Positions 6,466 through 40,523 of a stretch of DNA of 64,000 bases are shown here, piece by piece. The stretch comes from an uncultured Bacilli bacterium (GTDB taxonomy: Bacteria > Bacillota_I > Bacilli_A > RF39 > UBA660): the NCBI GenBank assembly GCA_934122395.1, contig CAKOWQ010000003.1:186299-250298 (forward strand). Direction: 5' to 3'. The notes beneath the pieces are model-generated. The model made no database searches. It saw only the letters and a list, made by a program, of their open reading frames with translations, and was not told the DNA's origin. A program made the translations under genes and the position numbers. Every line of letters starts with the position of its first letter. Within the stretch, counting starts at the first letter, position 1.

Positions 6466-8197
6466 AGAAGATGAAAAATTAAGTGTTATGAATCACTCAT
6501 GTGCTCATTTACTAGCACAAGCAGTAAAACATTTATATCCAAAAGCATTATTTTGGGTAGGACCTGTTATAGAAGATGGATTCTATTATGATATAGATTT
6601 AGGTGATGAATCTATTAATGATGAAGATTTAGCAAGAATTGAAAAAGAAATGAAGAAAATTGCTAAAGATGGAAAGAGAATTGTAAGAGAAGAAATAAGT
6701 AAAGAAGAAGCTTTAGAAAGATTTAAAAATGATCCATATAAAATAGATTTAATTTCTAGGATGGATGAAAATGATACAGTTATTTCTTGCTATACTCAGG
6801 GAGATTTTACTGACCTTTGTAGAGGACCACATCTTGAAAGTGTTAAAGAATTAAAGTATTTTAAATTACTCAAAGTAAGTGGTGCTTATTGGAAAGGTGA
6901 TTCTAATAACAAAATGCTTCAAAGAATTTATGGCATTTGTTTTGATAATGAAAATTCTTTAAGTGAATATTTGGCTTTTTTAGAAGAAGCTAAGAAAAGG
7001 GATCATAAAAAACTAGGTAAGGAATTAGATTTATTTATGATGAGTGAATATGGTCCAGGATTTCCTTTCTTCTTAAATAATGGAATGATTTTAAGAAATC
7101 AATTAGAAAATTTTTGGTATGAAGAACATACTAAAGAAGGGTATGAATTTGTTAAAACTCCAATTATGTTAAATAAAGAACTTTGGGAATTATCTGGACA
7201 CTGGTTTAATTATAGAGAAAATATGTATACAAGTGAAATTGATGATAAAGTATTTGCAATTAAACCTATGAACTGTCCTGGTGGAATGCTTGTATATAAA
7301 AATTCTCTTCATTCTTATAAAGATTTACCATTAAGAATCGGAGAATTAGGTCAAGTACATAGACATGAAGCAAGCGGAGCATTAAACGGTCTATTTAGAG
7401 TTAGAACATTTACGCAAGATGATGCTCATATATTTATGAGAGAAGATCAAATAGAAGAAGAAGTTATAAGATTAATTAACTTTATAGATAGAATGTATTC
7501 TATATTTGGATTAACTTATGATATTGAATTATCGACTAGACCAGAAGAAAAATATATTGGAAGTATTGAAATTTGGAATAAATCTGAAAAAGCTTTAGAA
7601 GAAGCATGTCATAGAGCAGGACATGATTGTAAAATAAATCCTGGTGATGGTGCTTTCTATGGACCTAAATTAGACTTTCATATTAAAGATTCTTTGGGTA
7701 GAGTATGGCAATGTGGAACAATTCAACTTGATATGAATTTACCAGAAAGATTTGATTTAACATATATTAGTTCTGATGGAAGTAAGAAAAGACCAGTTAT
7801 GTTACATCGCGTAATATATGGCTCAATTGAAAGATTTATTGGTATTTTAATTGAACATTATGCTGGAGCATTTCCACTTTGGCTTAGTCCAGTACAAGTA
7901 AATATTATTCCAGTTAATAATGAACTACATATGAATTATTGTAATGAAATTAAGAATTTACTTGAAGAAAATAATATTAGGGTTAAAGTTGATGCTAGAG
8001 ATGAAAAATTAGGATATAAAATGCGTGAAAGTCAAATCAAAAAAATACCTATAACTTTAATTATTGGAGATAATGAAGTTAATAAAAAACAAATTAGTTA
8101 TCGTAAATATGGAAATCAAGAAACTTATACTTGTGAAATTGATGAATTTATTAGTGAAATTAGTAAATGCTTAAAAGATAAAAAATATAATATTTAA
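6452..8197 (+). CDS. thrS: Threonyl-tRNA synthetase (no N-terminal TGS domain)
   Basis: HSCAHLLAQAV editing-domain motif at the N-terminus, class II core (FRVRTFTQDDAHIF, GAFYGPKLDF), anticodon domain; start moved to ATG 6452 (GGAGG 8 nt upstream) from the ORF-track 6410. Confidence 0.95.
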   Translation: MINIKEDEKLSVMNHSCAHLLAQAVKHLYPKALFWVGPVIEDGFYYDIDLGDESINDEDLARIEKEMKKIAKDGKRIVREEISKEEALERFKNDPYKIDLISRMDENDTVISCYTQGDFTDLCRGPHLESVKELKYFKLLKVSGAYWKGDSNNKMLQRIYGICFDNENSLSEYLAFLEEAKKRDHKKLGKELDLFMMSEYGPGFPFFLNNGMILRNQLENFWYEEHTKEGYEFVKTPIMLNKELWELSGHWFNYRENMYTSEIDDKVFAIKPMNCPGGMLVYKNSLHSYKDLPLRIGELGQVHRHEASGALNGLFRVRTFTQDDAHIFMREDQIEEEVIRLINFIDRMYSIFGLTYDIELSTRPEEKYIGSIEIWNKSEKALEEACHRAGHDCKINPGDGAFYGPKLDFHIKDSLGRVWQCGTIQLDMNLPERFDLTYISSDGSKKRPVMLHRVIYGSIERFIGILIEHYAGAFPLWLSPVQVNIIPVNNELHMNYCNEIKNLLEENNIRVKVDARDEKLGYKMRESQIKKIPITLIIGDNEVNKKQISYRKYGNQETYTCEIDEFISEISKCLKDKKYNI

Positions 8198-8227
8198 AAT
8201 TAGAAATGTAAGATGTTATTGGTTATA

Positions 8228-8251
8228 AAGACGAGATTTCGTCTTTTTTTA
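8228..8251 (+). terminator. Intrinsic terminator after thrS
   Basis: AAGACGA-GATT-TCGTCTT followed by a T-run. Confidence 0.8.
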
Positions 8252-8293
8252 GTTTGTGGTATAATTTTGTTAGAAATATAGGTGTGATTAAAT

Positions 8294-8890
8294 ATGAAAA
8301 AAGATATTAAACATTATAAACAATCTGGAAACGCTTGTGCTATAGCATGTTTGTTAATGATTTTGGAGTATTATGATGTGATTACAAAAGCTAATTATGT
8401 TTATGAGAAAAAGTACTATAATTCATATTCTTCTCAATATTTATTAGGAGTTCCGTTATCAGCAGTATTTTGGCATTTAATAAAGAATAATATAAATGCT
8501 GAAATGTTTCATTCAGAAAAAAACTTGTTTTCTAATAATAAACAAATAATTGACAATAATATTTTTAATCTTGCAATTATTGAATATAAAGAGTATCTGG
8601 AATATGCAATTCTAAAAGGCGCCAAAGTATACAATGGTGTAAATATAAATATCGATTTAATACAAGAAAAGGTCAAAGACAATTTCATTATTCTTGCTGG
8701 GGTAATCAATCAGAATTTTCATACTATTTTAATTACTTCTTTTAAAAATGATTACTTTATAGTTAATAATCCTGCAGTTAATGTATCTACAAATATAGAA
8801 GGTGAAAAAGTTAATGAGTTTATGAATACTGATATTGGAAAATGGTTTATCGCAATACCAAAAGGAGAAGTCTATGAAAAAGAAATATGA
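8294..8890 (+). CDS. Stand-alone C39-like (papain-fold) cysteine peptidase domain protein
   Basis: N-terminal Q-x4-C motif YKQSGNACAIACLLMILEYY; later FHTILITSF and VNNP could supply the His and Asn/Asp. Confidence 0.55.
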   Translation: MKKDIKHYKQSGNACAIACLLMILEYYDVITKANYVYEKKYYNSYSSQYLLGVPLSAVFWHLIKNNINAEMFHSEKNLFSNNKQIIDNNIFNLAIIEYKEYLEYAILKGAKVYNGVNINIDLIQEKVKDNFIILAGVINQNFHTILITSFKNDYFIVNNPAVNVSTNIEGEKVNEFMNTDIGKWFIAIPKGEVYEKEI

Positions 8891-9569
8891 AGATGATAAT
8901 TATGTTATATATTATCCTGATGCTTTAGAGGAGTTTGTAAATGATATGATAATTTGTACTAAGGCACAGATAAATAATATATATACTTTCTTTAATGTAA
9001 AAAATCTTAGAAAAATTCAAGTTAATTTATTTGATAATATAGATGAATTTAGAAAATTTGTTATTGATTTGCGTAGTGGTGATGAAAAATCATTACCTCA
9101 GTATGCAAAGGGAACTTTTGATGATGGGATGATTAATGCTTATATTGAACCTAACTTCATTAAAACTTCTAGTCTTTATGAAAAAAGAAAACGCATGATG
9201 CTACATGAAACTGTTCATTTGATATATAATGAAATTCTTTTAATGAATAATTTTGATAATAGAGTAGTATGGCTTGATGAAGGCCTTGCTCAAAACTTAT
9301 CTTTAGAAGAAGAGAAAAATGATAAAAAAATTAAGCAAAGTATTATTTCTAACAATATAGCAATTGATATAAATGATTTGAGTCATGGGGATATTTTTAT
9401 TACTAGTGAATATAACGGTTATGATTTATCATATTTTGCAGTTAGATATTTATTAGATACTTTGAATAGTAAACAAATAATAGAAATTATAAAAGATAAA
9501 GATAAGGCAATTAAACTTGGTAAGACAATAATTATAGACGCAATTAATTTTTATAAAAGGAGAGTATAA
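8874..9569 (+). CDS. Putative zinc metallopeptidase (peptidase MA-like, HExxH)
   Basis: MLHETVHLIY (HExxH) followed by WLDEGLAQ; start set at ATG 8874 (AGGAGAAG SD); overlaps the upstream gene by 17 nt. Confidence 0.55.
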   Translation: MKKKYEDDNYVIYYPDALEEFVNDMIICTKAQINNIYTFFNVKNLRKIQVNLFDNIDEFRKFVIDLRSGDEKSLPQYAKGTFDDGMINAYIEPNFIKTSSLYEKRKRMMLHETVHLIYNEILLMNNFDNRVVWLDEGLAQNLSLEEEKNDKKIKQSIISNNIAIDINDLSHGDIFITSEYNGYDLSYFAVRYLLDTLNSKQIIEIIKDKDKAIKLGKTIIIDAINFYKRRV

Positions 9570-9570
9570 T

Positions 9571-10587
9571 ATGAAAGAATTTATAACTAATGATAATAAT
9601 TTAAAAGAAGAAGATGTAACTGAAATAGTAAAGAGAGTAAAAGTATTAATAATTAATTCAAGTAATGAAGTGTTACTAGGATATTCTCACAATGATTATC
9701 AATTCCCTGGGGGACATGTTGAAGATGGTGAAACTTTGTTAGATACTGTTAATAGAGAAGTTATGGAAGAAGTAGGGATTAACTTAAATGTTAAAGAACT
9801 AAAACCTTTTGCAAAGATGATAGGTTATTATAAAGATTGGCCAGCAATAGGGAAAAATAGAAAAATCGAAATATATTATTATGAAGTTAAAACTGATGAA
9901 AAACCTAACTTGGATAATTTGCAGTTAACTGAGTATGAAAAGGATGGGGGATTTTGTCTTAAATATATTCCTCTTGAAAATATAGAAGAAGAACTTATTA
10001 ATAATATCAATATATATAGTGATAAACATGGTATAACCAAAGAAATGTTAGAGGTGCTTGAGTATTATAAAAAAGAAAAAAGCAAACTAAAACTCGAAAA
10101 TTTGAAATGTGTAGATAATAATATTGATTTGGATAAATACATAAATTTTTATAATAAATTAAAAGCAACTATGGAAGATCCGTCATGGTTAGGAGATTTT
10201 ACTAAAACCGATATAGAATTTATACTAAATAATGGTGGTAAGATATGGATTTATTATTTAAATAATGATCCTGTTTGTTCTATGATGTATATTCCATCTT
10301 CTATAAAAAGTTGTCAAAAACTATTAGATGGTAAGTATGATTATAGAGAAGTTATAGATTATGGCCCTATGATGGTATGGTGCGATTATTTTGGTAATAG
10401 TCTTCAATATCAAATGTTAGAGGTATTAGATGAGTATTCAAGAAATAATGGCAAGAAATATGCTGTTAGCACAGTTCATCCTGATAATGTTTATTCTATT
10501 AATAATTTATTAAAAGATGATTTTAAACATATTGGTACTAAAACTTTTACTAGAGGAGAAAGAAATATATATTTCAAAGCACTTTAG
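9571..10587 (+). CDS. Nudix hydrolase fused to a GNAT-like C-terminal domain
   Basis: Nudix box GGHVEDGETLLDTVNREVMEEVGI; the C-terminal half has a GNAT-like pattern (..NSLQYQMLEVLDEYSRNNGKKYAVSTVHPDNVYSINNLLKDDF). Confidence 0.7.
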   Translation: MKEFITNDNNLKEEDVTEIVKRVKVLIINSSNEVLLGYSHNDYQFPGGHVEDGETLLDTVNREVMEEVGINLNVKELKPFAKMIGYYKDWPAIGKNRKIEIYYYEVKTDEKPNLDNLQLTEYEKDGGFCLKYIPLENIEEELINNINIYSDKHGITKEMLEVLEYYKKEKSKLKLENLKCVDNNIDLDKYINFYNKLKATMEDPSWLGDFTKTDIEFILNNGGKIWIYYLNNDPVCSMMYIPSSIKSCQKLLDGKYDYREVIDYGPMMVWCDYFGNSLQYQMLEVLDEYSRNNGKKYAVSTVHPDNVYSINNLLKDDFKHIGTKTFTRGERNIYFKAL

Positions 10588-10688
10588 ACAATTAATTTAC
10601 ACTTTTTTACTTTTCGCGTTTCTATAATCCGTTGCTTGTTTTTATAATCTATGTTAGGATCAAAGTATAAAATAAGGGAGGATATGTA

Positions 10689-12140
10689 ATGAAAAAGAAA
10701 AGCTTATTTATTTTTATATGTGCTGTTATATTTTCTTTAGGAATGGGTGTAGATGCTAAAGAAATAACAGTATGCTCTGATGCAGCAACTTGTGATTATA
10801 CAGTTTTAAGAGATGCTACTGATGCTTCAATTGCAGGGGATGTAGTAAAATTAAAAGAAAATACTACTATAACTAGAGGAGTGTTATTACATAGTGAAAC
10901 TACATTAGATTTAGGTGGATTTACATTAACAGCTGAACCTGGTACATTTATTGCGGTAATAAACGGTAATAAAGATGTTAAAATTGTTAATGGTACAATT
11001 GAATTAAACAATGCTGCTAATGCTACAGGGCAAAATGCTAATGTGGTAATGCAAGGTGTTACTACTAAAGATGGAGCTACTACTTCATTAACAATTGCTG
11101 AAGACGTTACTATTAATTCAAATTTAAATGGTATTGTTATTCAAGCAGAGGATAAAGAATCATACAACACAATTTTAAATCTTTATGGTAAAATTAATGC
11201 TAAAGAAGTAGGTATTACAATTAATGGTTTTATTAGTGTTGTTGATGCACTTCAACCGGTAGTTAATATTTATGAATCTGCATCAATTAAAACAACAGAA
11301 GGACCTGCAATATATGCTGCTGGTTACGGAAGCTGGAACATTTATGGAGGATACTTTGAAGGAACAGAAGCTGTAAGTGTCAAATCAGGTAATATTAATA
11401 TATCTGGTGGTACTTTTAAAGCAATTGGTGAATATAAGGAAACGCCAACAGTAAATAATCGTGGATGGGAAGATACAGGTGCCGCTTTATCAATTACTTC
11501 GAGTACGAATTCTTATGCTAAAAATGTTACATTAAAAATTACTGCAGGACAATTTATAAGTAAAAATGGTCACGCATTATATGAGGGAATAACTGATGCT
11601 AATACTTCTGCTATAGTAAATGCAAGTATTACTGGTGGTATATTTACTTCAGCTACAGGAAAAGATAGTGTTAAAATCACTTCTAATAGTGATACTTTAA
11701 ATGGAGTTATTACTGGAGGAACATTTAGTACTACTCCAAGAGAAGAATTAGTTAATTCTAATGTTTCATCTTCTACTTTGGATGATGGTACTGTATTAGT
11801 TGGTTCTAAACATGGAATTACTGTAGGAACAATTGAAAATGGTATTGTAACTTTAGATAAAAACGTTGGAATTAAAGGTGAATTAATCAAACTTACTATT
11901 ACCCCAAAAGAAGGGTATGAAATAGATAAGATTGAAGTCTTGTGTGATGGTGATGAAGTATTAAGAACTGATAACGGATTTATTATGCCAGACGGTGACG
12001 TTGAAGTAAAAGTTACATTTAAGAAAGTTATTACTAATCCTAATACTTTTGATAATAGCTTAAATACATTGATAATATTAGGGGTTTGTGCATTAGGCGG
12101 ATTTATAACTTATAGAAAACTTGAAAAAAGTGCTAAATAA
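10689..12140 (+). CDS. Cell-surface protein: signal peptide, parallel-beta-helix-like repeats, Ig-like repeat, C-terminal NPNTFDN + TM + basic tail
   Basis: Signal MKKKSLFIFICAVIFSLGMGVDA; recurrent GG[YTI]F turns (IYGGYFEG, ISGGTFKA, ITGGIFTS, ITGGTFST); ..GYEIDKIEV..MPDGDVEVKVTF module; C-terminus NPNTFDNSLNTLIILGVCALGGFITYRKLEKSAK. Confidence 0.7.
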   Translation: MKKKSLFIFICAVIFSLGMGVDAKEITVCSDAATCDYTVLRDATDASIAGDVVKLKENTTITRGVLLHSETTLDLGGFTLTAEPGTFIAVINGNKDVKIVNGTIELNNAANATGQNANVVMQGVTTKDGATTSLTIAEDVTINSNLNGIVIQAEDKESYNTILNLYGKINAKEVGITINGFISVVDALQPVVNIYESASIKTTEGPAIYAAGYGSWNIYGGYFEGTEAVSVKSGNINISGGTFKAIGEYKETPTVNNRGWEDTGAALSITSSTNSYAKNVTLKITAGQFISKNGHALYEGITDANTSAIVNASITGGIFTSATGKDSVKITSNSDTLNGVITGGTFSTTPREELVNSNVSSSTLDDGTVLVGSKHGITVGTIENGIVTLDKNVGIKGELIKLTITPKEGYEIDKIEVLCDGDEVLRTDNGFIMPDGDVEVKVTFKKVITNPNTFDNSLNTLIILGVCALGGFITYRKLEKSAK

Positions 12141-12152
12141 TGAACGATTTTA

Positions 12153-12178
12153 AAAGACTTAGTTATAAGTCTTTTTTG
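12153..12178 (+). terminator. Intrinsic terminator
   Basis: AAGACTTA-GTTA-TAAGTCTT followed by a T-run. Confidence 0.75.
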
Positions 12179-12194
12179 CTTGAAGAGATAAAAC

Positions 12195-12223
12195 TGGACA
12201 AAATTTAAAAAGTGTGGTATAAT
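12195..12223 (+). promoter_or_regulatory. Strong sigma-A-type promoter (extended -10)
   Basis: TGGACA, 17-nt spacer, TGgTATAAT. Confidence 0.55.
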
Positions 12224-25534: not shown

Positions 25535-25757
25535 TTTTATACCTAGATTCTAATAGAAATATAGAAATTGTTTTAACCATTTTAAAAAACTTTTCATTAG
25601 GCCTCCTTTATCCTTATAGAAAGTTAACAAACAAGTAACTTTCTATTTTTAATTTTACCATAGAAAAGGTAAAAGTCAACATTTTGTTAACTTCGGCGTT
25701 GCTTATTGCAAGTAATCGAATAAAGTGTTATTATATAGGAACAAATCGGGGGATTTT

Positions 25758-26927
25758 ATGAGTGAAGTAACTTTAAAAGATAAGAAAGAAGTTCTTGTTA
25801 TGGCAAGTAAAGAAGAAAGGAAAGCTAAAATTTGTAAGGCTCTTATGGAAGCTAATTTTAGTCTTGTGTTTGATATCGCAAATATTCATAATTATTATGA
25901 TCAAGATGAATTAATTTCGGTAGGAACTCAAGGGCTTGTGAAAGCTGCTAATAGTTATGATACTACTAGAAATACACTGTTTAGGAATTATGCTTCAAAA
26001 TGCATTAGTAATGAGATTAATAATTTTTTAAAAAAGGCAAGTATAAGAAATGAAAATGTAAGTTTAGAAACACCAGTACAAACTAGTTATGGTAGTAAAA
26101 GATTAAAAGATATTATAATAGATGATGATCCATTTCGTAAAATATTCGATGAAGATGTTCATGCTTCTATTAGAAGTGCAATTACTTTATTACCATCACC
26201 TGAACGTGAAATAGTACAAATGCGATTTGGTTTTATTGATAATAAAATATTTAGTTTAAGAGATATTGCTAGTAAACTTCATTTATCATATGGTTATGTA
26301 AGTGAACTCTTAAATAATGGCGTAGAACTTGCTGCTATAATACTATCTAAAAAAGGAATAATAGATTTGAATAAGGACGAATATACTCTAGTTCACGATA
26401 AAAAAGGAAAAGTAAGAGCAATAAAAAAAGATAAGTTGTCAATATATAAGTATTTTAGCGATTATAGTGAAGATGAAATTAATTATGCATTATCAACTTT
26501 GACTCAAAGTGAAAGAGGATTGTTACCAAGTGCTTGTGGTGAAGCAATTCCTAATGAAATGTCTGAATTTATATATATTAGTCGAAAATTAAAAAAACGA
26601 CTTGATGCTTTTAGAGAAAATAAAGGTGCTGGTGCTGATAGGTTAACTACTGATGACTATAAAGAAATAGTTGATATATTAAATGGTGATAATATGCCAA
26701 AAAGAATTCAGGCGTTGGAAGAAAGCGAAAAAATTGTGGCATTATTAAGTTTGGGGTATGTAAATGGGAAGTATTTTTCAAGTGAATTTGTTTCAGATAC
26801 TTTAGGTATTCCACAAGAACGCGTTTTGGAAATAATTGATAAAACTGAAGAATTTGCTAGACAAGAGAGAAAAGAAGAAATGGAAAAATATCTAACCGGA
26901 ATAAAAACCAAAAGCAAAAGACCTTGA
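25758..26927 (+). CDS. Sigma-70-family factor with about 190-aa C-terminal extension carrying extra region-4-like HTH modules
   Basis: Region 2-like FSLVFDIANIH..DELISVGTQGLVKAANSYD..FRNYASKCISNEINNFL; region 4-like LPSPEREIVQMRFG..SLRDIASKLHLSYGYVSELL; then LTQSERGLL and EKIVALLSLGYVNGKYFSSEFVSDTLGIPQERVLEII. Confidence 0.65.
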   Translation: MSEVTLKDKKEVLVMASKEERKAKICKALMEANFSLVFDIANIHNYYDQDELISVGTQGLVKAANSYDTTRNTLFRNYASKCISNEINNFLKKASIRNENVSLETPVQTSYGSKRLKDIIIDDDPFRKIFDEDVHASIRSAITLLPSPEREIVQMRFGFIDNKIFSLRDIASKLHLSYGYVSELLNNGVELAAIILSKKGIIDLNKDEYTLVHDKKGKVRAIKKDKLSIYKYFSDYSEDEINYALSTLTQSERGLLPSACGEAIPNEMSEFIYISRKLKKRLDAFRENKGAGADRLTTDDYKEIVDILNGDNMPKRIQALEESEKIVALLSLGYVNGKYFSSEFVSDTLGIPQERVLEIIDKTEEFARQERKEEMEKYLTGIKTKSKRP

Positions 26928-37013: not shown

Positions 37014-37018
37014 TTAAG

Positions 37019-37046
37019 CACTAACAATTTTGTTAGTGTTTTTTAT
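37019..37046 (+). terminator. Intrinsic terminator
   Basis: CACTAACA-ATTT-TGTTAGTG followed by a T-run. Confidence 0.8.
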
Positions 37047-37119
37047 TTATTTTTGGTTGCTTAATATTAAAAAATAAACTATAATTATCTTAGAATAGAA
37101 GATAGTTGGTGATTAGGTA

Positions 37120-38400
37120 ATGAATAAGAAGATACTATTGATGTTTACTTTTTTATTTTCATTTTTCATGTTTAAAGATAATGTTTTCGCTGGTACCGTT
37201 CTAAAAGAGACTGATTATACTTTAGAATGTTTATATAGTGATGGAGGCCTTTATACCAATGAGTGGTCTAATGGAAGGGGAGCATATATAGTAAATCGTA
37301 CATCATATAATTTAACTGATGCTTCACAATCAGATACTAATAAAGGTGGAGATATGGTTTTTGTAAATACACCCGCTATTAGAGGTAGGACTAATCAACA
37401 ATACACAACATGTGCTTTAAAACTGTATTCTGCTGTGGTTCAAGGAAGTAATGATGCAGCAATGTCATATTTTAAATTCAATACCTCTTTTACTTGCAAT
37501 ACTTCTGATAATTCATGTCCTGAATTTGGCGTTGAAAAAAGTGGATGGTCAAAATTTTGGGGAACTGCTGGAGCTTTAAAAGAATATGCATCAGCTGCAG
37601 AAGCTGCTAATAATTCTCCTTATAATTTGATTTCTGAACGTTATTTATTTAGCAATAATATTCCGGAACCCAACAAGACTTTATATTATGTATTACCGGC
37701 TACTCAAAAAATAGGAACTAATATGTATGTAAAAATATATATTTACGACAATATCACTTTGTTAGATAAAGATGGGCGCATTACTAGATTAGATGGTGAT
37801 ACTAGTCTATTTTCTCAAACAACTTTGCCAGAAAAAATATATTTAAATTCCCCAGAGCCTATTCCAGTTACAGGAACTAATTCTGTTGTTTCTTATAAAT
37901 ATAATGCAGATCAAATAATTTATTCTTTTACAACTGCTTCAGATCCTACTCACACTATAGGATTTACAAATTCAACTGATAATCCACCTGATGATAGTGA
38001 TACAAGTAGTAGTTTATGTACTGAAAAATTAAAAAACACATCTCCTGTGTTGAAAAGTATCATTCAATTTGGTCAAATTTTACTTCCTGCGCTTGTTATT
38101 ATTTTAACAGGATTGGATATTGGAAAAATAGTTGTAACAGGTAATATCGAAGAAGAGTTACCTAAACGTAAGAAAACAATAATTAATAGAGCTATAGTAT
38201 TGTTAATTTTATTATTCTTACCTTTACTTGTTAAAGTTATGTTGAAGATAGTTAAGGATACTGGTAGTGATATTGCAAATAACATTGAATATATTGATTG
38301 TTTATTTGATTCTAGTGCTAAAGCAGGAACAGCTAAAAAAGGTTCAACAACAAAAAAATCAAATAATTCAAAAAATGAAAATGTTGCCGTAGAAAAGTAA
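37120..38400 (+). CDS. Secreted protein with C-terminal two-helix membrane hairpin (VirB2/TrbC-pilin-like topology) and Lys-rich tail
   Basis: Signal MNKKILLMFTFLFSFFMFKDNVFA; about 290-aa Cys-containing ectodomain; SIIQFGQILLPALVIILTGLDIGKIVV - charged loop KRKK - AIVLLILLFLPLLVKVML. Confidence 0.5.
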   Translation: MNKKILLMFTFLFSFFMFKDNVFAGTVLKETDYTLECLYSDGGLYTNEWSNGRGAYIVNRTSYNLTDASQSDTNKGGDMVFVNTPAIRGRTNQQYTTCALKLYSAVVQGSNDAAMSYFKFNTSFTCNTSDNSCPEFGVEKSGWSKFWGTAGALKEYASAAEAANNSPYNLISERYLFSNNIPEPNKTLYYVLPATQKIGTNMYVKIYIYDNITLLDKDGRITRLDGDTSLFSQTTLPEKIYLNSPEPIPVTGTNSVVSYKYNADQIIYSFTTASDPTHTIGFTNSTDNPPDDSDTSSSLCTEKLKNTSPVLKSIIQFGQILLPALVIILTGLDIGKIVVTGNIEEELPKRKKTIINRAIVLLILLFLPLLVKVMLKIVKDTGSDIANNIEYIDCLFDSSAKAGTAKKGSTTKKSNNSKNENVAVEK

Positions 38401-38442
38401 TACGGCAAAGAAAAGTAAGAAATTTAATATTGAGGTGATAGC

Positions 38443-40458
38443 ATGGTAGACTTTTTTGCGGCGGCTCAAAGAGTTATTTCAATGATTATGACTGGTACTG
38501 AGTTAGTGTTTATTGTATGGCTTACTTCTGGTGGCGTTATTTTTGTACTAAGAGGAATAAGCTTTTGGATAGATTGTACTATAGTAAAGTGCATTGGTGC
38601 AATTTATAGTTACTTTATGACATTATTAAATGGTACTATGTTTAACAAAACACTGGTTAATGCAGTTATGAAAAATGTATATATATTTATTGGAGTGTTT
38701 ATATTCTTTAGAGTAGCCATGCTTCTTATTAAATATATAATGAATCCGGAAATGGTTGCCGATCAGAAAGCCGGTGCTAATGCATTAATTAAAAGAGTAA
38801 TAATTGGTATGATGGGAATAATTTTTATACCAACTATATTTGATTATGGTTTAAAACTTCAATCTGCTGTAATTGAGGATCAACTGATTCAACAGTTATT
38901 TATTCCAAGTGATATGATAAAAGAGGTTGAAAAACAAACAACAAATGGAGGAAATGGAATAGGTACCACAATTTTTTCTGGTTTTATTAATCCTAGCTCC
39001 AAGGCGCCGGATAAAATTAAGAATGAATACAAGAAGGCCTTGGAACAGAAGGATTTATCATCTATAAATTTTAATAGCGGGGGATTCCTGGGAATAGGAT
39101 ACTCGAGTTATGATTATAGTTATTTTTACTTAATTTCGACCTTTGTTCTTGGATATGTATTGTATCTTATGCTTAAATATTGTTTAGATATAGTTGTCCG
39201 TTTCTTTAAGCTTTTTCTATTTCAATTAATTGCGCCAATTGCTATGGTGGAATATATGGCGAATGGTGCAGACGATGGCGTTTTCAAAAATTGGAAAAAT
39301 GCTGTTCTTGGTAGCTATTTGATGCTATTTACTAGAATTATGTCTATTTGGTTTGTCTTGTTTGTTATGACTTTGTTAAACGGCAATTTTCCTAATTATA
39401 GCAATGGGTCATTATTAGCTGAAAATGATTACTTATTAAAAGCCTTAATAATGATAGGATTGCTAGCATTTATGATGGATCTGCCTAAAATCATTGGTAG
39501 TATATTTGGCCTTGATCTAGAACAGGATTCATCTGCTACAGGTTTATTAAAATCATTTGGTGGTATGATCAAAGGTGTCGGATTAGGCGCTGTTTCTTTA
39601 GGCGGCGCAGCAGCAGCAGGTGGATTTAAAAGAATTCAGAATGCCGGTGGTGCTGCTAGTAAAATGCATGCCTTAAATCAACAAAAGAAGAGTGATATGG
39701 CAGCAGGAACATTTGATGCTGCTAAATATAATCAAAATAAGGCTGCTATAATGAAAGATTTCAAGACTGGAAAATCAAATGCTATGAGAGCTACAGGTGT
39801 TGGAATGCTTAAATCATTAGCTGGTAATAGTAAGATTGTTGGCGCTGCTTATAGTGGTGCTACTGGTGTTACAGAAGATATTAAAAAGAAAGAGGGTAAA
39901 GCTGAAGCTAAGGCACAAGCTGAGGAAGAAAGAGCTTATAGACAGCATCAAATAGAAGTTACTGATGAAATTAATACTAATACACATGTAATAGTTGGTC
40001 AGCAAGCTGTTGCTAATGTTAAACTTGATAATTTAGTAGACAATTCTGAACAAACATTGACTCAAACCGTTAATATTGATCATAAATTAGGCAATGTTAG
40101 TAATAATGTTGAAGCGATTGCTAAAAATACTGAAACTACAGCTCAACAAACAGTTAACATTGATCAGAAACTAGGAACAGTTAGTGGCAACGTTGAAGCA
40201 ATTGCTCAAAATACTGAGACTGCGGCTCAACATACTGTTAATGTTGATCAAAAATTAGGAAAAATTAGTGGTAAGATTGATACGATTGCAGATAATACAG
40301 AAATTTCTGCTGAACAATCAATTGATATAAATCAAAAAGTTGGTAACATTAGTGGCGATGTAAGTAATATTTCTGATAATACAGAATTAATAGGGGATGC
40401 TACTTTAAACATTGAACATAGCACTAGAGATGATGATAAAGAATCATTAAATAGTTAA
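38443..40458 (+). CDS. Polytopic membrane protein (TrbL/VirB6-like organisation) with Gly/Ala-rich linker and C-terminal 28-aa tandem repeats
   Basis: At least 6 TM helices in the first about 370 aa; GLGAVSLGGAAAAGGFKRIQNAGGAAS; repeats QTVNIDxKLGxVSGNVEAIAxNTETxAQ; SD GAGGTGA 42 nt after the upstream gene. Confidence 0.5.
   Translation: MVDFFAAAQRVISMIMTGTELVFIVWLTSGGVIFVLRGISFWIDCTIVKCIGAIYSYFMTLLNGTMFNKTLVNAVMKNVYIFIGVFIFFRVAMLLIKYIMNPEMVADQKAGANALIKRVIIGMMGIIFIPTIFDYGLKLQSAVIEDQLIQQLFIPSDMIKEVEKQTTNGGNGIGTTIFSGFINPSSKAPDKIKNEYKKALEQKDLSSINFNSGGFLGIGYSSYDYSYFYLISTFVLGYVLYLMLKYCLDIVVRFFKLFLFQLIAPIAMVEYMANGADDGVFKNWKNAVLGSYLMLFTRIMSIWFVLFVMTLLNGNFPNYSNGSLLAENDYLLKALIMIGLLAFMMDLPKIIGSIFGLDLEQDSSATGLLKSFGGMIKGVGLGAVSLGGAAAAGGFKRIQNAGGAASKMHALNQQKKSDMAAGTFDAAKYNQNKAAIMKDFKTGKSNAMRATGVGMLKSLAGNSKIVGAAYSGATGVTEDIKKKEGKAEAKAQAEEERAYRQHQIEVTDEINTNTHVIVGQQAVANVKLDNLVDNSEQTLTQTVNIDHKLGNVSNNVEAIAKNTETTAQQTVNIDQKLGTVSGNVEAIAQNTETAAQHTVNVDQKLGKISGKIDTIADNTEISAEQSIDINQKVGNISGDVSNISDNTELIGDATLNIEHSTRDDDKESLNS
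40063..40422 (+). repeat. In-frame tandem repeat, 84-nt unit x 4.3
   Basis: Units start at 40063, 40147, 40231, 40315 (partial at 40399); each begins CAA/CAT-ACx-GTT-AAx-ATT-GAT. Confidence 0.9.
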
Positions 40459-40487
40459 GAGGAATTAGTGATAATTCTTCTTTTTTT
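40458..40487 (+). terminator. Intrinsic terminator
   Basis: AGAGGAATTA-GTGA-TAATTCTTCT (one G-U) followed by T7. Confidence 0.75.
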
Positions 40488-40523
40488 GTGTCTAAAATGT
40501 TATAATATTTATAGGTGATTATA

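What the first reader, a model, noticed from the sequence alone, without database searches (positions are those of the whole stretch)
37120..40458. Orphan two-gene membrane module between topA and polA resembling T4SS VirB2/TrbC-like and VirB6/TrbL-like components
Gene 1 encodes a signal peptide and a Cys-containing ectodomain of about 290 aa. It then has a C-terminal hydrophobic hairpin (two TM helices split by a charged KRKK loop) like VirB2/TrbC-type pilins, and a Lys-rich tail. Gene 2 starts 42 nt downstream with its own SD. It encodes a protein with at least 6 TM helices, then a Gly/Ala-rich stretch (GGAAAAGG..GGAAS) typical of TrbL/VirB6 C-termini, then coiled-coil and repeat regions. 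There is no VirB4 or VirD4 ATPase, relaxase, integrase or att-like repeat nearby, and both flanks are core genes with their own terminators. It could be a remnant of a conjugative element, or a domesticated envelope or secretion device.
Basis: inference. Interest (0 to 1): 0.6.

Follow-up and report, generated by a model that had tools for sequence, protein, structure and literature searches.

The report
Orphan T4SS pilin–VirB6 gene pair
Two neighbouring membrane-protein genes between topA and polA are kept, working descendants of a conjugation-type (type IV) secretion machine: a pilin-like hairpin fused to a new surface domain, and a VirB6-like platform protein. They matter because they sit in an uncultured gut Bacilli lineage with no secretion ATPase nearby.

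Summary

**Gene 2 (671 aa)**
- Its closest curated families are the mycoplasma ICE and pLS20 VirB6-like membrane proteins, below their cut-offs.

**Gene 1 (426 aa)**
- It has a signal peptide and a 270-aa β-rich ectodomain with no detectable relatives.
- Its C-terminal two-helix hairpin is homologous to the VirB2-like pilin-array genes of complete Gram-positive T4SS clusters (HMM E 8e-18; hhalign 98.3%).

**Context**
- Distant homologues of gene 2 lie inside full T4SS clusters in other gut Bacilli MAGs, where a fused pilin usually precedes the VirB6-like gene.
- The orphan pair is fixed between topA and polA in at least 13 relatives and is sometimes tandemly duplicated.
- dN/dS is 0.04 for the VirB6 domain and 0.09 for the hairpin, against 0.05 for topA and polA.
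- It is therefore domesticated, not a decaying remnant.

**Open question**
- The 64-kb window holds no VirB4, VirD4, VirB3-like, TraC-like or hydrolase gene.
- I could not test whether a VirB4 lies elsewhere in the genome.

Verdict: a new variant of a known kind, of moderately high interest.

The parts
37016..37041 (+). Intrinsic terminator of topA (11-bp stem plus T-run). It separates the pair from topA.
   Evidence: sequence
37067..37096 (+). Promoter-like site (TTAAAA-18-TAGAAT) upstream of gene 1. This is a weak consensus match only.
   Evidence: The scan found no more such sites than in shuffled sequence, so this is a candidate only.
37120..38400 (+). Gene 1 (426 aa): signal peptide, lineage-specific ectodomain, VirB2-like hairpin and Lys-rich tail.
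37120..37191 (+). Gene 1 signal peptide (aa 1-24, ...NVFA|G).
   Evidence: the hydrophobic N-terminus is conserved across the family
37192..38004 (+). Gene 1 ectodomain (aa 25-295). It is β-rich, has invariant C37 and C98, evolves fast, and has no relatives outside this family.
   Evidence: Model pLDDT is mostly above 85. No PDB or BFVD match. The ectodomain HMM finds nothing in the T4SS clusters. dN/dS is 0.32.
38005..38307 (+). Gene 1 VirB2-like hairpin (aa 296-396): C300, helix 1, loop GNIEEELPKRKK, helix 2, then ...IEYIDC394LF.
   Evidence: An HMM built only from class-B pilins gives E 8e-18 over aa 300-380. hhalign gives 98.3% and E 1.3e-14. 12 of the 16 invariant family positions lie here. 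dN/dS is 0.089.
38308..38397 (+). Gene 1 Lys-rich tail (aa 397-426), present only in the closest relatives.
38432..38438 (+). Shine-Dalgarno sequence GAGGTGA of gene 2, in the 42-nt intergenic spacer.
38443..40458 (+). Gene 2 (671 aa): extended VirB6-like protein.
38443..39522 (+). Gene 2 VirB6-like polytopic domain (aa 1-360), with about 7 hydrophobic helices and a 96-aa loop at aa 130-225.
39523..39648 (+). Gly/Ala-rich low-confidence linker (aa 361-402, including GGAAAAGG...GGAAS).
39649..40041 (+). Helical or coiled-coil C-terminal region (aa 403-533). It is variable among relatives.
   Evidence: dN/dS 0.23-0.30
40042..40401 (+). Four to five tandem 28-aa (84-nt) repeats, TVNIDxKLGxVSxNVEAIAxNTExxAQx.
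40460..40488 (+). AT-rich hairpin (AGGAATTA-gtga-TAATTCTT) plus T-run after gene 2. It is a weak terminator candidate.
   Evidence: Read from the sequence; not reported by the scanner.

Best explanation
The pair is a domesticated two-gene derivative of the pilus-base part of a Gram-positive-type T4SS.

Shown:
- Gene 2 is an extended VirB6-like membrane protein.
- Gene 1 carries a VirB2-like pilin hairpin at the C-terminus of a secreted, lineage-specific ectodomain.
- The gene order, fused pilin then VirB6-like, copies the junction found in 13 of 15 complete T4SS clusters of related gut Bacilli.
- The pair was captured once, has been inherited vertically between topA and polA, was duplicated in some genomes, and is under purifying selection as strong as that on its housekeeping neighbours.
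- It looks like its own bicistronic unit.

Inferred mechanism:
- As modelled for TrwI/VirB6 in R388 and for PrgH/PrgF in pCF10, the VirB6-like protein would form an oligomeric (probably pentameric) platform in the membrane.
- The hairpins of gene 1 would dock onto it, with the conserved EELPKRKK loop facing the central cavity.
- Gene 1's termini would face outwards, so a ring of fast-evolving ectodomains is displayed through the wall. That would make a cap or stalk-like surface structure, functionally like the VirB5-VirB6 stalk, used for contact or recognition rather than DNA export.
- A bulky 30-kDa domain on every subunit, and the absence of any small 'major' pilin gene, argue for a short capped assembly rather than a long homopolymeric pilus.

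Not settled: whether this works without an ATPase or with a VirB4 encoded elsewhere.
For: Identity of gene 2:
- Full-length sub-threshold matches to NF045848, NF045889 and NF045890 occur in 18, 16 and 6 of 31 family members.

Identity of gene 1's hairpin:
- A profile built only from 74 pilin-like ORFs of T4SS clusters hits gene 1 at E 8e-18, and hits every orphan-locus homologue.
- hhalign gives 98.3% probability.
- PF18895 is the top Pfam family for 23 of 34 cluster pilins and 9 of 30 gene-1 relatives.

T4SS ancestry:
- Distant gene-2 homologues sit in the order pilin array, VirB6-like, VirB3-like, TraC-like, VirB4, hydrolase, VirD4.

Domestication:
- The synteny topA-gene1-gene2-polA holds in L001, L009-L017, L028, L031 and L032-34.
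- A neighbour-joining tree places all orphan copies, including tandem paralogues, in one clade.
- dN/dS is 0.042 (VirB6 domain) and 0.089 (hairpin), against 0.051 (topA) and 0.049 (polA); the ectodomain is 0.32.
- No mobile-element genes or flanking repeats were found, and there are no plasmid or viral relatives.

Mechanistic analogy:
- VirB2-like PrgF is modelled to assemble on a PrgH/VirB6 pentamer with its charged loop lining the lumen, and its charged loop residues were shown to be needed for conjugation (bioRxiv 10.64898/2025.12.18.695078).
- In gene 1 the loop holds invariant E345, P348 and K349, with R357 just after it.
Against: - No assembly, stoichiometry or topology was tested; no multimer modelling was possible.
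- Pilin extraction and polymerisation in known T4SSs depend on VirB4, which is absent from the window. A stand-alone function therefore has no precedent.
- I could not examine the rest of the genome, so a VirB4 or VirD4 locus elsewhere is not excluded. Separated pilin, VirB6 and VirB4 loci are common in Patescibacteria (PMC12102498).
- All profile matches to curated families are below their cut-offs, and the window's own gene 1 gives no Pfam hit at E≤0.1.
- The ectodomain's function is unknown.
- The steric argument against a long pilus is a rough estimate, not a computation.
Confidence: 0.5

Rival explanations
1. The pair is a satellite locus of a dispersed but complete T4SS. VirB4, VirB3-like, VirB8-like, hydrolase and possibly VirD4 genes lie elsewhere in the same genome, and the pair supplies that machine's only VirB6 platform and (tip) pilin. 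The system would then export or import DNA or proteins, or build a real pilus.
For: - In known T4SSs, VirB2 and VirB6 work with VirB4.
- In Patescibacteria many VirB6 and pilin genes lie away from virB4 (PMC12102498). In the archaeal Ted system the ATPase gene is separated from the pilin and VirB6-like genes by a few genes (PMC9905601).
- In the genome scan no orphan-pair MAG showed a second VirB6-like gene. If a VirB4 locus exists, it would need this VirB6.
- Strong constraint on the VirB6 domain and the hairpin loop fits an active machine.
Against: - No T4SS partner gene is in the 64-kb window, nor within about 10 kb either side of the pair in 13 related loci.
- In all 19 T4SS clusters seen, the VirB6-like gene directly precedes the VirB3-like gene wherever the contig extends that far, and pilin-like genes sit upstream in every locus whose upstream region was captured.
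- None of the 120 best VirB4 homologues shares a contig length with a known orphan-pair contig. This test is weak, because only homologues at 78% identity or more were listed.
Confidence: 0.3
2. The pair protects against, or acts as a receptor or decoy for, the T4SS pili of neighbouring bacteria. This would be exclusion-like: a chromosomal VirB6 and pilin mimic that interferes with incoming machines of the abundant gut Bacilli T4SS.
For: - The related complete T4SS is extremely abundant in the same gut habitats, with 7,407 VirB4 hits at E≤1e-30.
- No MAG carried both the orphan pair and the complete T4SS cluster.
- Fast-evolving exposed parts (ectodomain, C-terminal repeats) fit an arms race.
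- From general knowledge, not checked here: exclusion systems are known to act through VirB6-type proteins.
Against: - There is no direct evidence.
- Known exclusion proteins are small and unrelated to VirB6 and VirB2.
- Constraint on the VirB6 core as strong as on topA and polA is more than a decoy would seem to need.
Confidence: 0.07
3. The pair is a decaying remnant of an integrated conjugative element.
For: - T4SS ancestry.
- The other T4SS genes are absent.
Against: - The ORFs are intact in every full-length locus examined.
- The position is the same in at least 13 diverged relatives, whose topA is only 75-92% identical.
- dN/dS is 0.04-0.09 in the core parts.
- Tandem duplication has been retained.
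- There is no integrase, relaxase or att repeat.
Confidence: 0.03
4. The two are generic membrane proteins unrelated to T4SS, and the resemblances are due to hydrophobic composition.
For: - All curated-family matches are below their cut-offs.
- The weak GPCR and Frizzled hits show there is composition-driven noise.
Against: - Profile hits align conserved Cys, Pro, Arg and FxP positions, not just hydrophobic stretches.
- Homologues are physically embedded in T4SS operons.
Confidence: 0.02

Closest known systems
PrgF (VirB2-like) and PrgH (VirB6-like) of the Enterococcus faecalis plasmid pCF10 (bioRxiv 10.64898/2025.12.18.695078)
   Same: A two-helix membrane protein with a short charged loop is encoded close to an extended VirB6-like protein in a monoderm bacterium. 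The proposed docking of the hairpin on a VirB6 pentamer is the model I borrow.
   Different: - PrgF is small (candidates were screened at 50-150 aa) and has no ectodomain.
- It sits in a full conjugation operon with VirB4, VirD4 and a relaxase on a plasmid.
- No sequence similarity to PrgF or PrgH was tested directly here. tblastn of gene 2's first 400 aa found no PLSDB plasmid relative.
Mycoplasma ICE membrane proteins: MMCAP2_0566 / Mbov_0396 (CDS16, VirB6-like) with the adjacent 'pilin-like' Mbov_0395 (NCBIfam NF045848, NF045889, NF045849)
   Same: - These are the best curated sequence matches to gene 2: E 2e-16, covering profile positions 8-321 of 322.
- The locus-tag order suggests pilin-like, then TM protein, then VirB4 (Mbov_0397).
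- CDS16 is regarded as the VirB6-like part of the ICE (PMC12857230).
   Different: - Scores are below the curated cut-offs (60 against 90 bits; 33 against 70).
- The mycoplasma genes are on mobile ICEs with VirB4 and VirD4.
- Their pilin-like protein is about 80 aa (the profile length), not a 426-aa fusion.
Complete T4SS clusters of uncultured gut Bacilli (L003-L008, L018-L027, L029-L030)
   Same: - They are the direct homologues: VirB6-like proteins at 19-24% identity in the full-length alignment, with 13 positions invariant across the aligned orphan and T4SS-embedded copies.
- Their pilin arrays share the hairpin family.
- 13 of 15 loci have an ectodomain-pilin fusion immediately before the VirB6-like gene.
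   Different: - They also carry small pilins, VirB3-like, TraC-like, VirB4 and hydrolase genes, and VirD4 wherever the contig extends that far.
- Their fused ectodomains are unrelated to gene 1's.
- They sit at other chromosomal sites.
Patescibacteria chromosomal T4SS with VirB2 arrays (PMC12102498; PMC12857230)
   Same: A monoderm-type T4SS that lost its relaxase and was co-opted for a cellular function. It uses PF18895-type pilins, often with pilin or VirB6 genes away from virB4.
   Different: It still has VirB4 and usually a coupling protein. No two-gene orphan module and no ectodomain-fused pilin is described in the passages I read.
TrwI/VirB6-TrwJ/VirB5 stalk of R388 (PDB 7O3V) and the DotA-IcmX protochannel (PDB 9NGY)
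   Same: These are the best structural matches to gene 2. A pentameric VirB6 platform capped by a second, exposed protein is the architecture I propose for gene 2 plus gene 1.
   Different: - They come from diderm systems, and sequence identity is only 10-12%.
- The cap (VirB5 or IcmX) is not a pilin-hairpin fusion.
- They are part of ATPase-driven machines.
Archaeal Ced/Ted DNA-import systems (PMC9905601)
   Same: They are domesticated, chromosomal T4SS derivatives built around VirB2-like (CedA1/TedC) and VirB6-like (CedA/TedA) proteins. That paper also notes VirB2-VirB6 N-terminal homology, which I saw weakly here.
   Different: Ced and Ted keep a VirB4-like ATPase (CedB/TedB). Their pilins are small and form long pili. 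No sequence relation to this pair has been shown.

Membership tests
VirB6/TrbL-type T4SS platform proteins | Polytopic protein with 5 or more hydrophobic helices and a large extracytoplasmic loop | tested here: met
   About 7 hydrophobic segments in aa 11-352 and a 96-aa loop at 130-225.
VirB6/TrbL-type T4SS platform proteins | Fold similarity to a solved VirB6 | tested here: met
VirB6/TrbL-type T4SS platform proteins | Match to a curated VirB6-like sequence model at its own cut-off | tested here: not met
   - NF045848: 60.1 bits against a cut-off of 90.
- NF045889: 33.4 against 70.
- No Pfam family at E≤0.001.
- E-values are nevertheless significant and coverage is end to end.
VirB6/TrbL-type T4SS platform proteins | Encoded together with a VirB4 ATPase | tested here: not met
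   There is no VirB4 in the 64-kb window, nor within about 10 kb either side in 13 related loci. The feature is met only by the distant homologues P0074-P0085. The rest of the genome could not be tested.
VirB6/TrbL-type T4SS platform proteins | Pentameric assembly that recruits pilin | not testable with these tools
   No multimer prediction or experiment was available.
VirB2/TrbC-type conjugative pilins (PF04956, PF18895) | Two hydrophobic helices joined by a short charged loop | tested here: met
   Helices at aa 307-340 and 343-380 in the model. The loop GNIEEELPKRKK holds invariant E345, P348 and K349, with R357 just after it.
VirB2/TrbC-type conjugative pilins (PF04956, PF18895) | Small mature protein consisting essentially of the hairpin | tested here: not met
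   The protein is 426 aa. The hairpin is the C-terminal quarter, behind a 270-aa ectodomain.
VirB2/TrbC-type conjugative pilins (PF04956, PF18895) | Match to the Pfam pilin models at the gathering score | tested here: not met
   - The window protein has no PF18895 hit at E≤0.1.
- 9 of 30 relatives hit it (best E 0.0023).
- 23 of 34 T4SS-cluster pilins hit it (best E 1.9e-5). The scores shown individually were 23.5, 23.4 and 21.6 bits, against a cut-off of 26.6.
VirB2/TrbC-type conjugative pilins (PF04956, PF18895) | Homology to pilin genes of bona fide T4SS operons, and a position next to virB6 | tested here: met
   The class-B-only HMM gives E 8e-18 and hhalign gives 98.3% with E 1.3e-14. Gene 1 lies 42 nt upstream of the VirB6-like gene.
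VirB2/TrbC-type conjugative pilins (PF04956, PF18895) | Polymerises into a pilus | not testable with these tools
   Needs imaging or multimer modelling.
Integrative conjugative element or conjugative plasmid | Relaxase, coupling protein, integrase, and att or terminal repeats | tested here: not met
   - No VirD4.
- Annotated neighbours are ordinary chromosomal genes or have no Pfam match; none is an integrase or relaxase.
- No bracketing repeats.
- No plasmid or viral relatives.
- Relaxase and integrase profiles were not run over all 55 ORFs of the window.

The most novel reading that the evidence does not exclude
The pair is a self-sufficient, ATPase-independent surface structure derived from a T4SS: a VirB6-like ring capped by a crown of ectodomain-bearing pilin hairpins. 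An uncultured gut Bacilli lineage would use it for cell-cell or host contact. By extension, the ectodomain-pilin fusions that sit directly before VirB6 in related complete systems would be the missing VirB5-like pilus tip of Gram-positive T4SSs.
Probability: 0.25. Interest if true: 0.8.

Novelty: new variant of a known kind. Interest (0 to 1): 0.6.

Why it matters
T4SS components are normally studied as parts of ATPase-driven machines on mobile elements. Here the VirB2-like and VirB6-like parts alone are fixed in a core chromosomal locus, are as constrained as topA and polA, and have been duplicated in some genomes.

- If they act without a VirB4, that would show the pilin-platform sub-assembly has a function of its own.
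- If a VirB4 lies elsewhere, this lineage has a split, relaxase-less T4SS co-opted for cell biology, as in Patescibacteria, but in ordinary gut Firmicutes.
- In either case, the fusion of a pilin hairpin to a variable ectodomain, also found next to VirB6 in related complete systems, gives a concrete candidate for how Gram-positive T4SS pili carry a tip or adhesin. The PrgF preprint left that point open.
- None of the homologues found here carries a functional name from its source, so this also gives those sequences a testable annotation.

Tried and rejected
- Pfam, PHROGs and PDB sequence searches of both proteins gave only noise or coiled-coil hits.
- tblastn of gene 2's first 400 aa against PLSDB plasmids found no match. 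Viral-contig scans with both family alignments found no relatives.
- Rfam found nothing in the window, and there are no tRNAs.
- Exact look-ups of the window's own gene 1 and topA products found no record, so the source genome could not be named. Cluster look-up gave no names.
- To test for a VirB4 elsewhere in the genome, I searched VirB4 homologues and compared contig lengths with orphan-pair contigs. There was no match, but only the 120 best of 7,407 hits were listed, so this is inconclusive.
- Genes flanking the T4SS insertion sites of the class-B loci (rimM-trmD, yunB) are not in the window, so those sites could not be inspected.
- A literature search for RF39 plus type IV secretion found nothing relevant.
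- The extra genes beside the pair in some relatives have no Pfam assignment.
- The topology of gene 2's C-terminal region (inside or outside) could not be settled from hydropathy alone.

Full report
**Observation**

- Gene 1 has a hydrophobic signal-like N-terminus, a 290-aa hydrophilic region with conserved cysteines, two hydrophobic helices (314-332 and 359-377) separated by ...GNIEEELPKRKK..., and a Lys-rich tail.
- Gene 2 starts 42 nt later behind GAGGTGA. It has about seven hydrophobic helices within aa 11-352, a GGAAAAGG...GGAAS stretch, a helical region, and four to five 28-aa repeats with an 84-nt period.
- topA ends in a clear terminator at 37016-37041.
- After gene 2 there is only an AT-rich hairpin plus T-run, which I read by eye, followed by an extended -10 for polA.

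So the pair looks like a separate bicistronic unit, although the promoter scan is no better than shuffled sequence.

**Absences**

- tblastn and phmmer with VirB4, VirD4, VirB3-like, TraC-like, hydrolase and accessory proteins from related T4SS clusters found nothing else in the 64-kb window. Gene 1 is the only pilin-like ORF in six frames.
- The neighbours I annotated are trigger factor, GlmM, a TetR regulator, MurD, an Rce1-like protease, a sigma-like protein and four proteins with no Pfam match. Two ABC exporters lie upstream and fpg downstream.
- No direct repeats bracket the pair. There are no tRNAs and no Rfam hits.
- GC content is about 28-32% across the region and its flanks, rising to 38% only over the repeat-rich end of gene 2.

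**What gene 2 is**

- Pfam gave only coiled-coil noise.
- NCBIfam aligned aa 35-364 end to end with the MMCAP2_0566 conjugal-transfer family (E 2e-16, 60 bits, cut-off 90) and the Mbov_0396 ICE transmembrane family (E 3e-8).
- Across 31 family members, 18, 16 and 6 hit those two families and pLS20_p028 respectively.
- An AlphaFold model built on the family alignment has pLDDT of about 70-88 over aa 1-360 and is poor beyond.
- A recent review describes mycoplasma ICE CDS16 as the likely VirB6-like subunit. It also says monoderm MPF_FA VirB6 proteins are 700-900 residues long with unstructured extensions (PMC12857230), which fits gene 2's architecture.

**What gene 1 is**

- Its model is confident for a β-rich ectodomain and a long helical hairpin (mean pLDDT 78.5).
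- The ectodomain has no PDB or BFVD match and no Pfam match.
- An HMM of the ectodomain finds nothing in the T4SS clusters.
- The hairpin is different. tblastn first linked aa 310-394 to a 114-aa protein of a T4SS cluster (E 7e-9).
- A profile built only from 74 such ORFs in 15 T4SS loci then hit gene 1 at E 8e-18 over aa 300-380, and hit every gene-1 homologue in the orphan loci.
- hhalign between the two family alignments gave 98.3% probability and E 1.3e-14, aligning the Cys before helix 1, the Pro in helix 1, the charged loop, an Arg, and the FFxP motif of helix 2.
- Those cluster proteins have PF18895 T4SS_pilin as their commonest Pfam match (23 of 34, best E 1.9e-5, below the 26.6-bit cut-off where scores were shown), with single hits to TrbC/VirB2 and CagC.
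- 9 of 30 gene-1 relatives also touch PF18895.
- Twelve of the 16 invariant positions of the gene-1 family lie in aa 300-396. They include E345, P348 and K349 in the loop, R357 just after it, and C300 and C394 on either side of the hairpin.
- The small cluster pilins also keep a Cys before helix 1 and one after helix 2. A disulfide staple across the two ends of the hairpin is my inference; it was not tested.

**Context elsewhere**

Homologue searches returned 85 proteins for gene 2 and 35 for gene 1. None carries a name, and many share contigs. Contexts fall into two clean classes.

*Class A (orphan pair)*
- The order is topA, gene 1, gene 2, then polA and fpg.
- It is found in L001, L009-L017, L028, L031 and L032-34. 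The NCBI genome records among them are titled as uncultured gut 'Bacilli' or 'Erysipelotrichaceae' MAGs from rabbit, goat, sheep and other animals; the remaining contigs come from metagenome assemblies.
- Their topA is 75-92% and their polA 64-96% identical to the window's.
- Four loci carry two tandem pairs. Some carry an extra coiled-coil gene or a bitopic membrane gene, neither of which has a Pfam assignment.

*Class B (inside a complete T4SS)*
- It contains the distant gene-2 homologues: 19-24% identity in the full-length alignment and 24-31% in local alignments.
- The order is an array of pilin-like genes, VirB6-like, a roughly 105-aa VirB3-like gene, TraC-like, VirB4, a SpoIID/M23 or CHAP hydrolase, one or two roughly 240-aa genes, and VirD4.
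- In 13 of 15 class-B loci the gene immediately before the VirB6-like gene is an ectodomain-pilin fusion of 261-396 aa. That is exactly the architecture of the orphan pair.

No MAG appeared in both classes. However, the genome scan used a single peptide pattern, and MAGs are incomplete.

**Evolution**

- A neighbour-joining tree of the VirB6-like domains, without bootstrap, puts all class-A copies, including the tandem paralogues, in one clade apart from the three class-B sequences that passed the filter.
- Against the close relative L031, Nei-Gojobori dN/dS is 0.042 for the VirB6 domain and 0.089 for the hairpin, compared with 0.051 for topA and 0.049 for polA.
- The ectodomain (0.32, with dS saturated) and gene 2's C-terminus (0.23-0.30) evolve much faster.
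- The full gene-1 architecture has about 99 representative clusters at E≤1e-30 among 1.84 billion proteins. The hairpin alone reaches 2,685 at E≤0.001.
- There are no relatives on PLSDB plasmids or IMG/VR contigs.

Together these results reject a decaying ICE remnant. They support one capture of the 'last pilin plus VirB6' junction followed by vertical inheritance under selection.

**Mechanism**

Shown: the identities, the adjacency, the constraint, and the lack of nearby partners.

Inferred: by analogy with R388, where a VirB6 pentamer is the platform on which VirB5 and then VirB2 dock (PMC12857230), and with pCF10, where PrgF is modelled on a PrgH pentamer with its charged loop lining the lumen and its charged loop residues were shown to be needed for conjugation (bioRxiv 10.64898/2025.12.18.695078). 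On that basis I propose:
- gene 2 forms an oligomeric platform;
- gene 1 hairpins dock on it with the EELPKRKK loop inwards;
- the variable ectodomains are displayed outwards as a cap.

A bulky domain on every subunit, and the absence of a small pilin gene in the window, argue for a short capped structure rather than a long pilus. This is a rough steric argument, not a computation.

The main rival is that VirB4 and other parts lie elsewhere in the genome. Split loci are common in Patescibacteria (PMC12102498), and in Ted the ATPase gene is a few genes away (PMC9905601). I could not test this: the source genome could not be retrieved, and the VirB4 search was too saturated to be informative.

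My estimates:
- about 0.9 that the pair is a domesticated VirB2-like/VirB6-like module;
- about 0.45 that it acts without a dedicated VirB4, and about 0.3 that it is part of a dispersed T4SS;
- smaller weights for an exclusion or decoy role, a remnant, or no T4SS relation.

**Comparison and novelty**

The pair works like, and descends from, the VirB2-VirB6 sub-assembly. It does not meet curated thresholds for any named family. Gene 1 fails the 'small pilin' criterion, and the VirB4 association is not met locally.

The nearest described things are PrgF/PrgH, the mycoplasma ICE CDS15/16 pair, the Patescibacteria co-opted T4SS and the archaeal Ced/Ted systems. All of these keep a VirB4. The reviews and papers I read do not describe an orphan, core-locus pair with an ectodomain-fused pilin (PMC12857230, PMC12102498, PMC9905601; the word 'orphan' does not occur in the first two).

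I therefore rate it a new variant of a known kind, with interest 0.6. It would rate higher if whole-genome scans show no VirB4.

Noticed in passing
L003-L008, L018-L027, L029-L030 (for example L003:6000-22000): - This is a very abundant T4SS in uncultured gut Bacilli: 7,407 VirB4 homologues at E≤1e-30, one of them labelled Candidatus Coprovivens.
- It looks chromosomal. Core genes flank it (rimM-trmD on one side and rhodanese on the other in some loci, yunB in others), and no relaxase or integrase was noticed among the listed flanking genes.
- It carries arrays of about 5 sequence-divergent pilin-like genes per locus.
- This closely parallels the co-opted, pilin-array T4SS described for Patescibacteria. 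My one literature search for it (RF39 plus type IV secretion) found nothing.
   Followed up: partly
L003:9200-9985, L006:8876-9988, L008:8971-9990, L022:8922-9911 and others: In 13 of 15 complete T4SS clusters, the gene directly upstream of the VirB6-like gene is a 261-396-aa protein with an N-terminal ectodomain and a C-terminal pilin hairpin. Larger fusions of up to 819 aa occur further upstream. They are candidate tip or minor pilins for Gram-positive T4SS pili.
   Followed up: partly
L009:3532-7408 and 8581-11986; L010:2648-5939 and 7878-11231; L013:5218-8696 and 8796-12211; L014:2657-6329 and 8640-12148: Four relatives carry two tandem, old paralogous copies of the gene1-gene2 pair between topA and polA. 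Their VirB6 domains are 34-44% and 43-67% identical to the window's. The window has only one copy.
   Followed up: partly
L001:12097-13086, L017:11396-12463, L032:13568-14647; L009:7418-8425, L010:11266-12297, L013:4275-5213, L014:7617-8627: Two unassigned accessory gene families accompany the pair in some relatives and are absent from the window. One is a coiled-coil protein of 329-567 aa after gene 2. The other is a roughly 335-aa bitopic membrane protein (short charged N-terminus, one TM, about 250-aa outer domain) that occurs only in the four loci with two pairs. Neither has a Pfam match.
   Followed up: partly
window:40042-40401: Gene 2 ends in four to five 28-aa (84-nt) repeats. The motif is found in only a few relatives (2-5 copies in six homologues), while the C-terminal half of the family varies in length from about 600 to 880 aa.
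   Followed up: partly
window:38650-38870 (gene 2 aa about 75-143): The pilin-hairpin profile weakly matches the second and third hydrophobic helices of the VirB6-like proteins (E about 1e-5). Conversely, gene 1's hairpin hits positions 60-129 of the pLS20_p028 VirB6-like model. This echoes the VirB2-VirB6 N-terminal homology reported for CedA1/CedA and for Agrobacterium VirB2/VirB6 (PMC9905601).
   Followed up: no
window:40515-40526: The mechanical ORF for polA starts at GTG 40515. The relative in L031 starts at the equivalent of ATG 40524 (MKKVILID...), which follows TAGGTGA. The true polA start is therefore probably 40524.
   Followed up: no
window:45914-47278 (-) and 25725-26927 (+): By synteny with L032, the 454-aa ORF next to murD corresponds to a MurL-type epimerase (it had no Pfam hit at 1e-5 here). 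A 400-aa protein with sigma-70 regions 2 and 4 lies upstream of trigger factor. Having MurD and MurL means this low-GC (about 28%) organism makes peptidoglycan.
   Followed up: no
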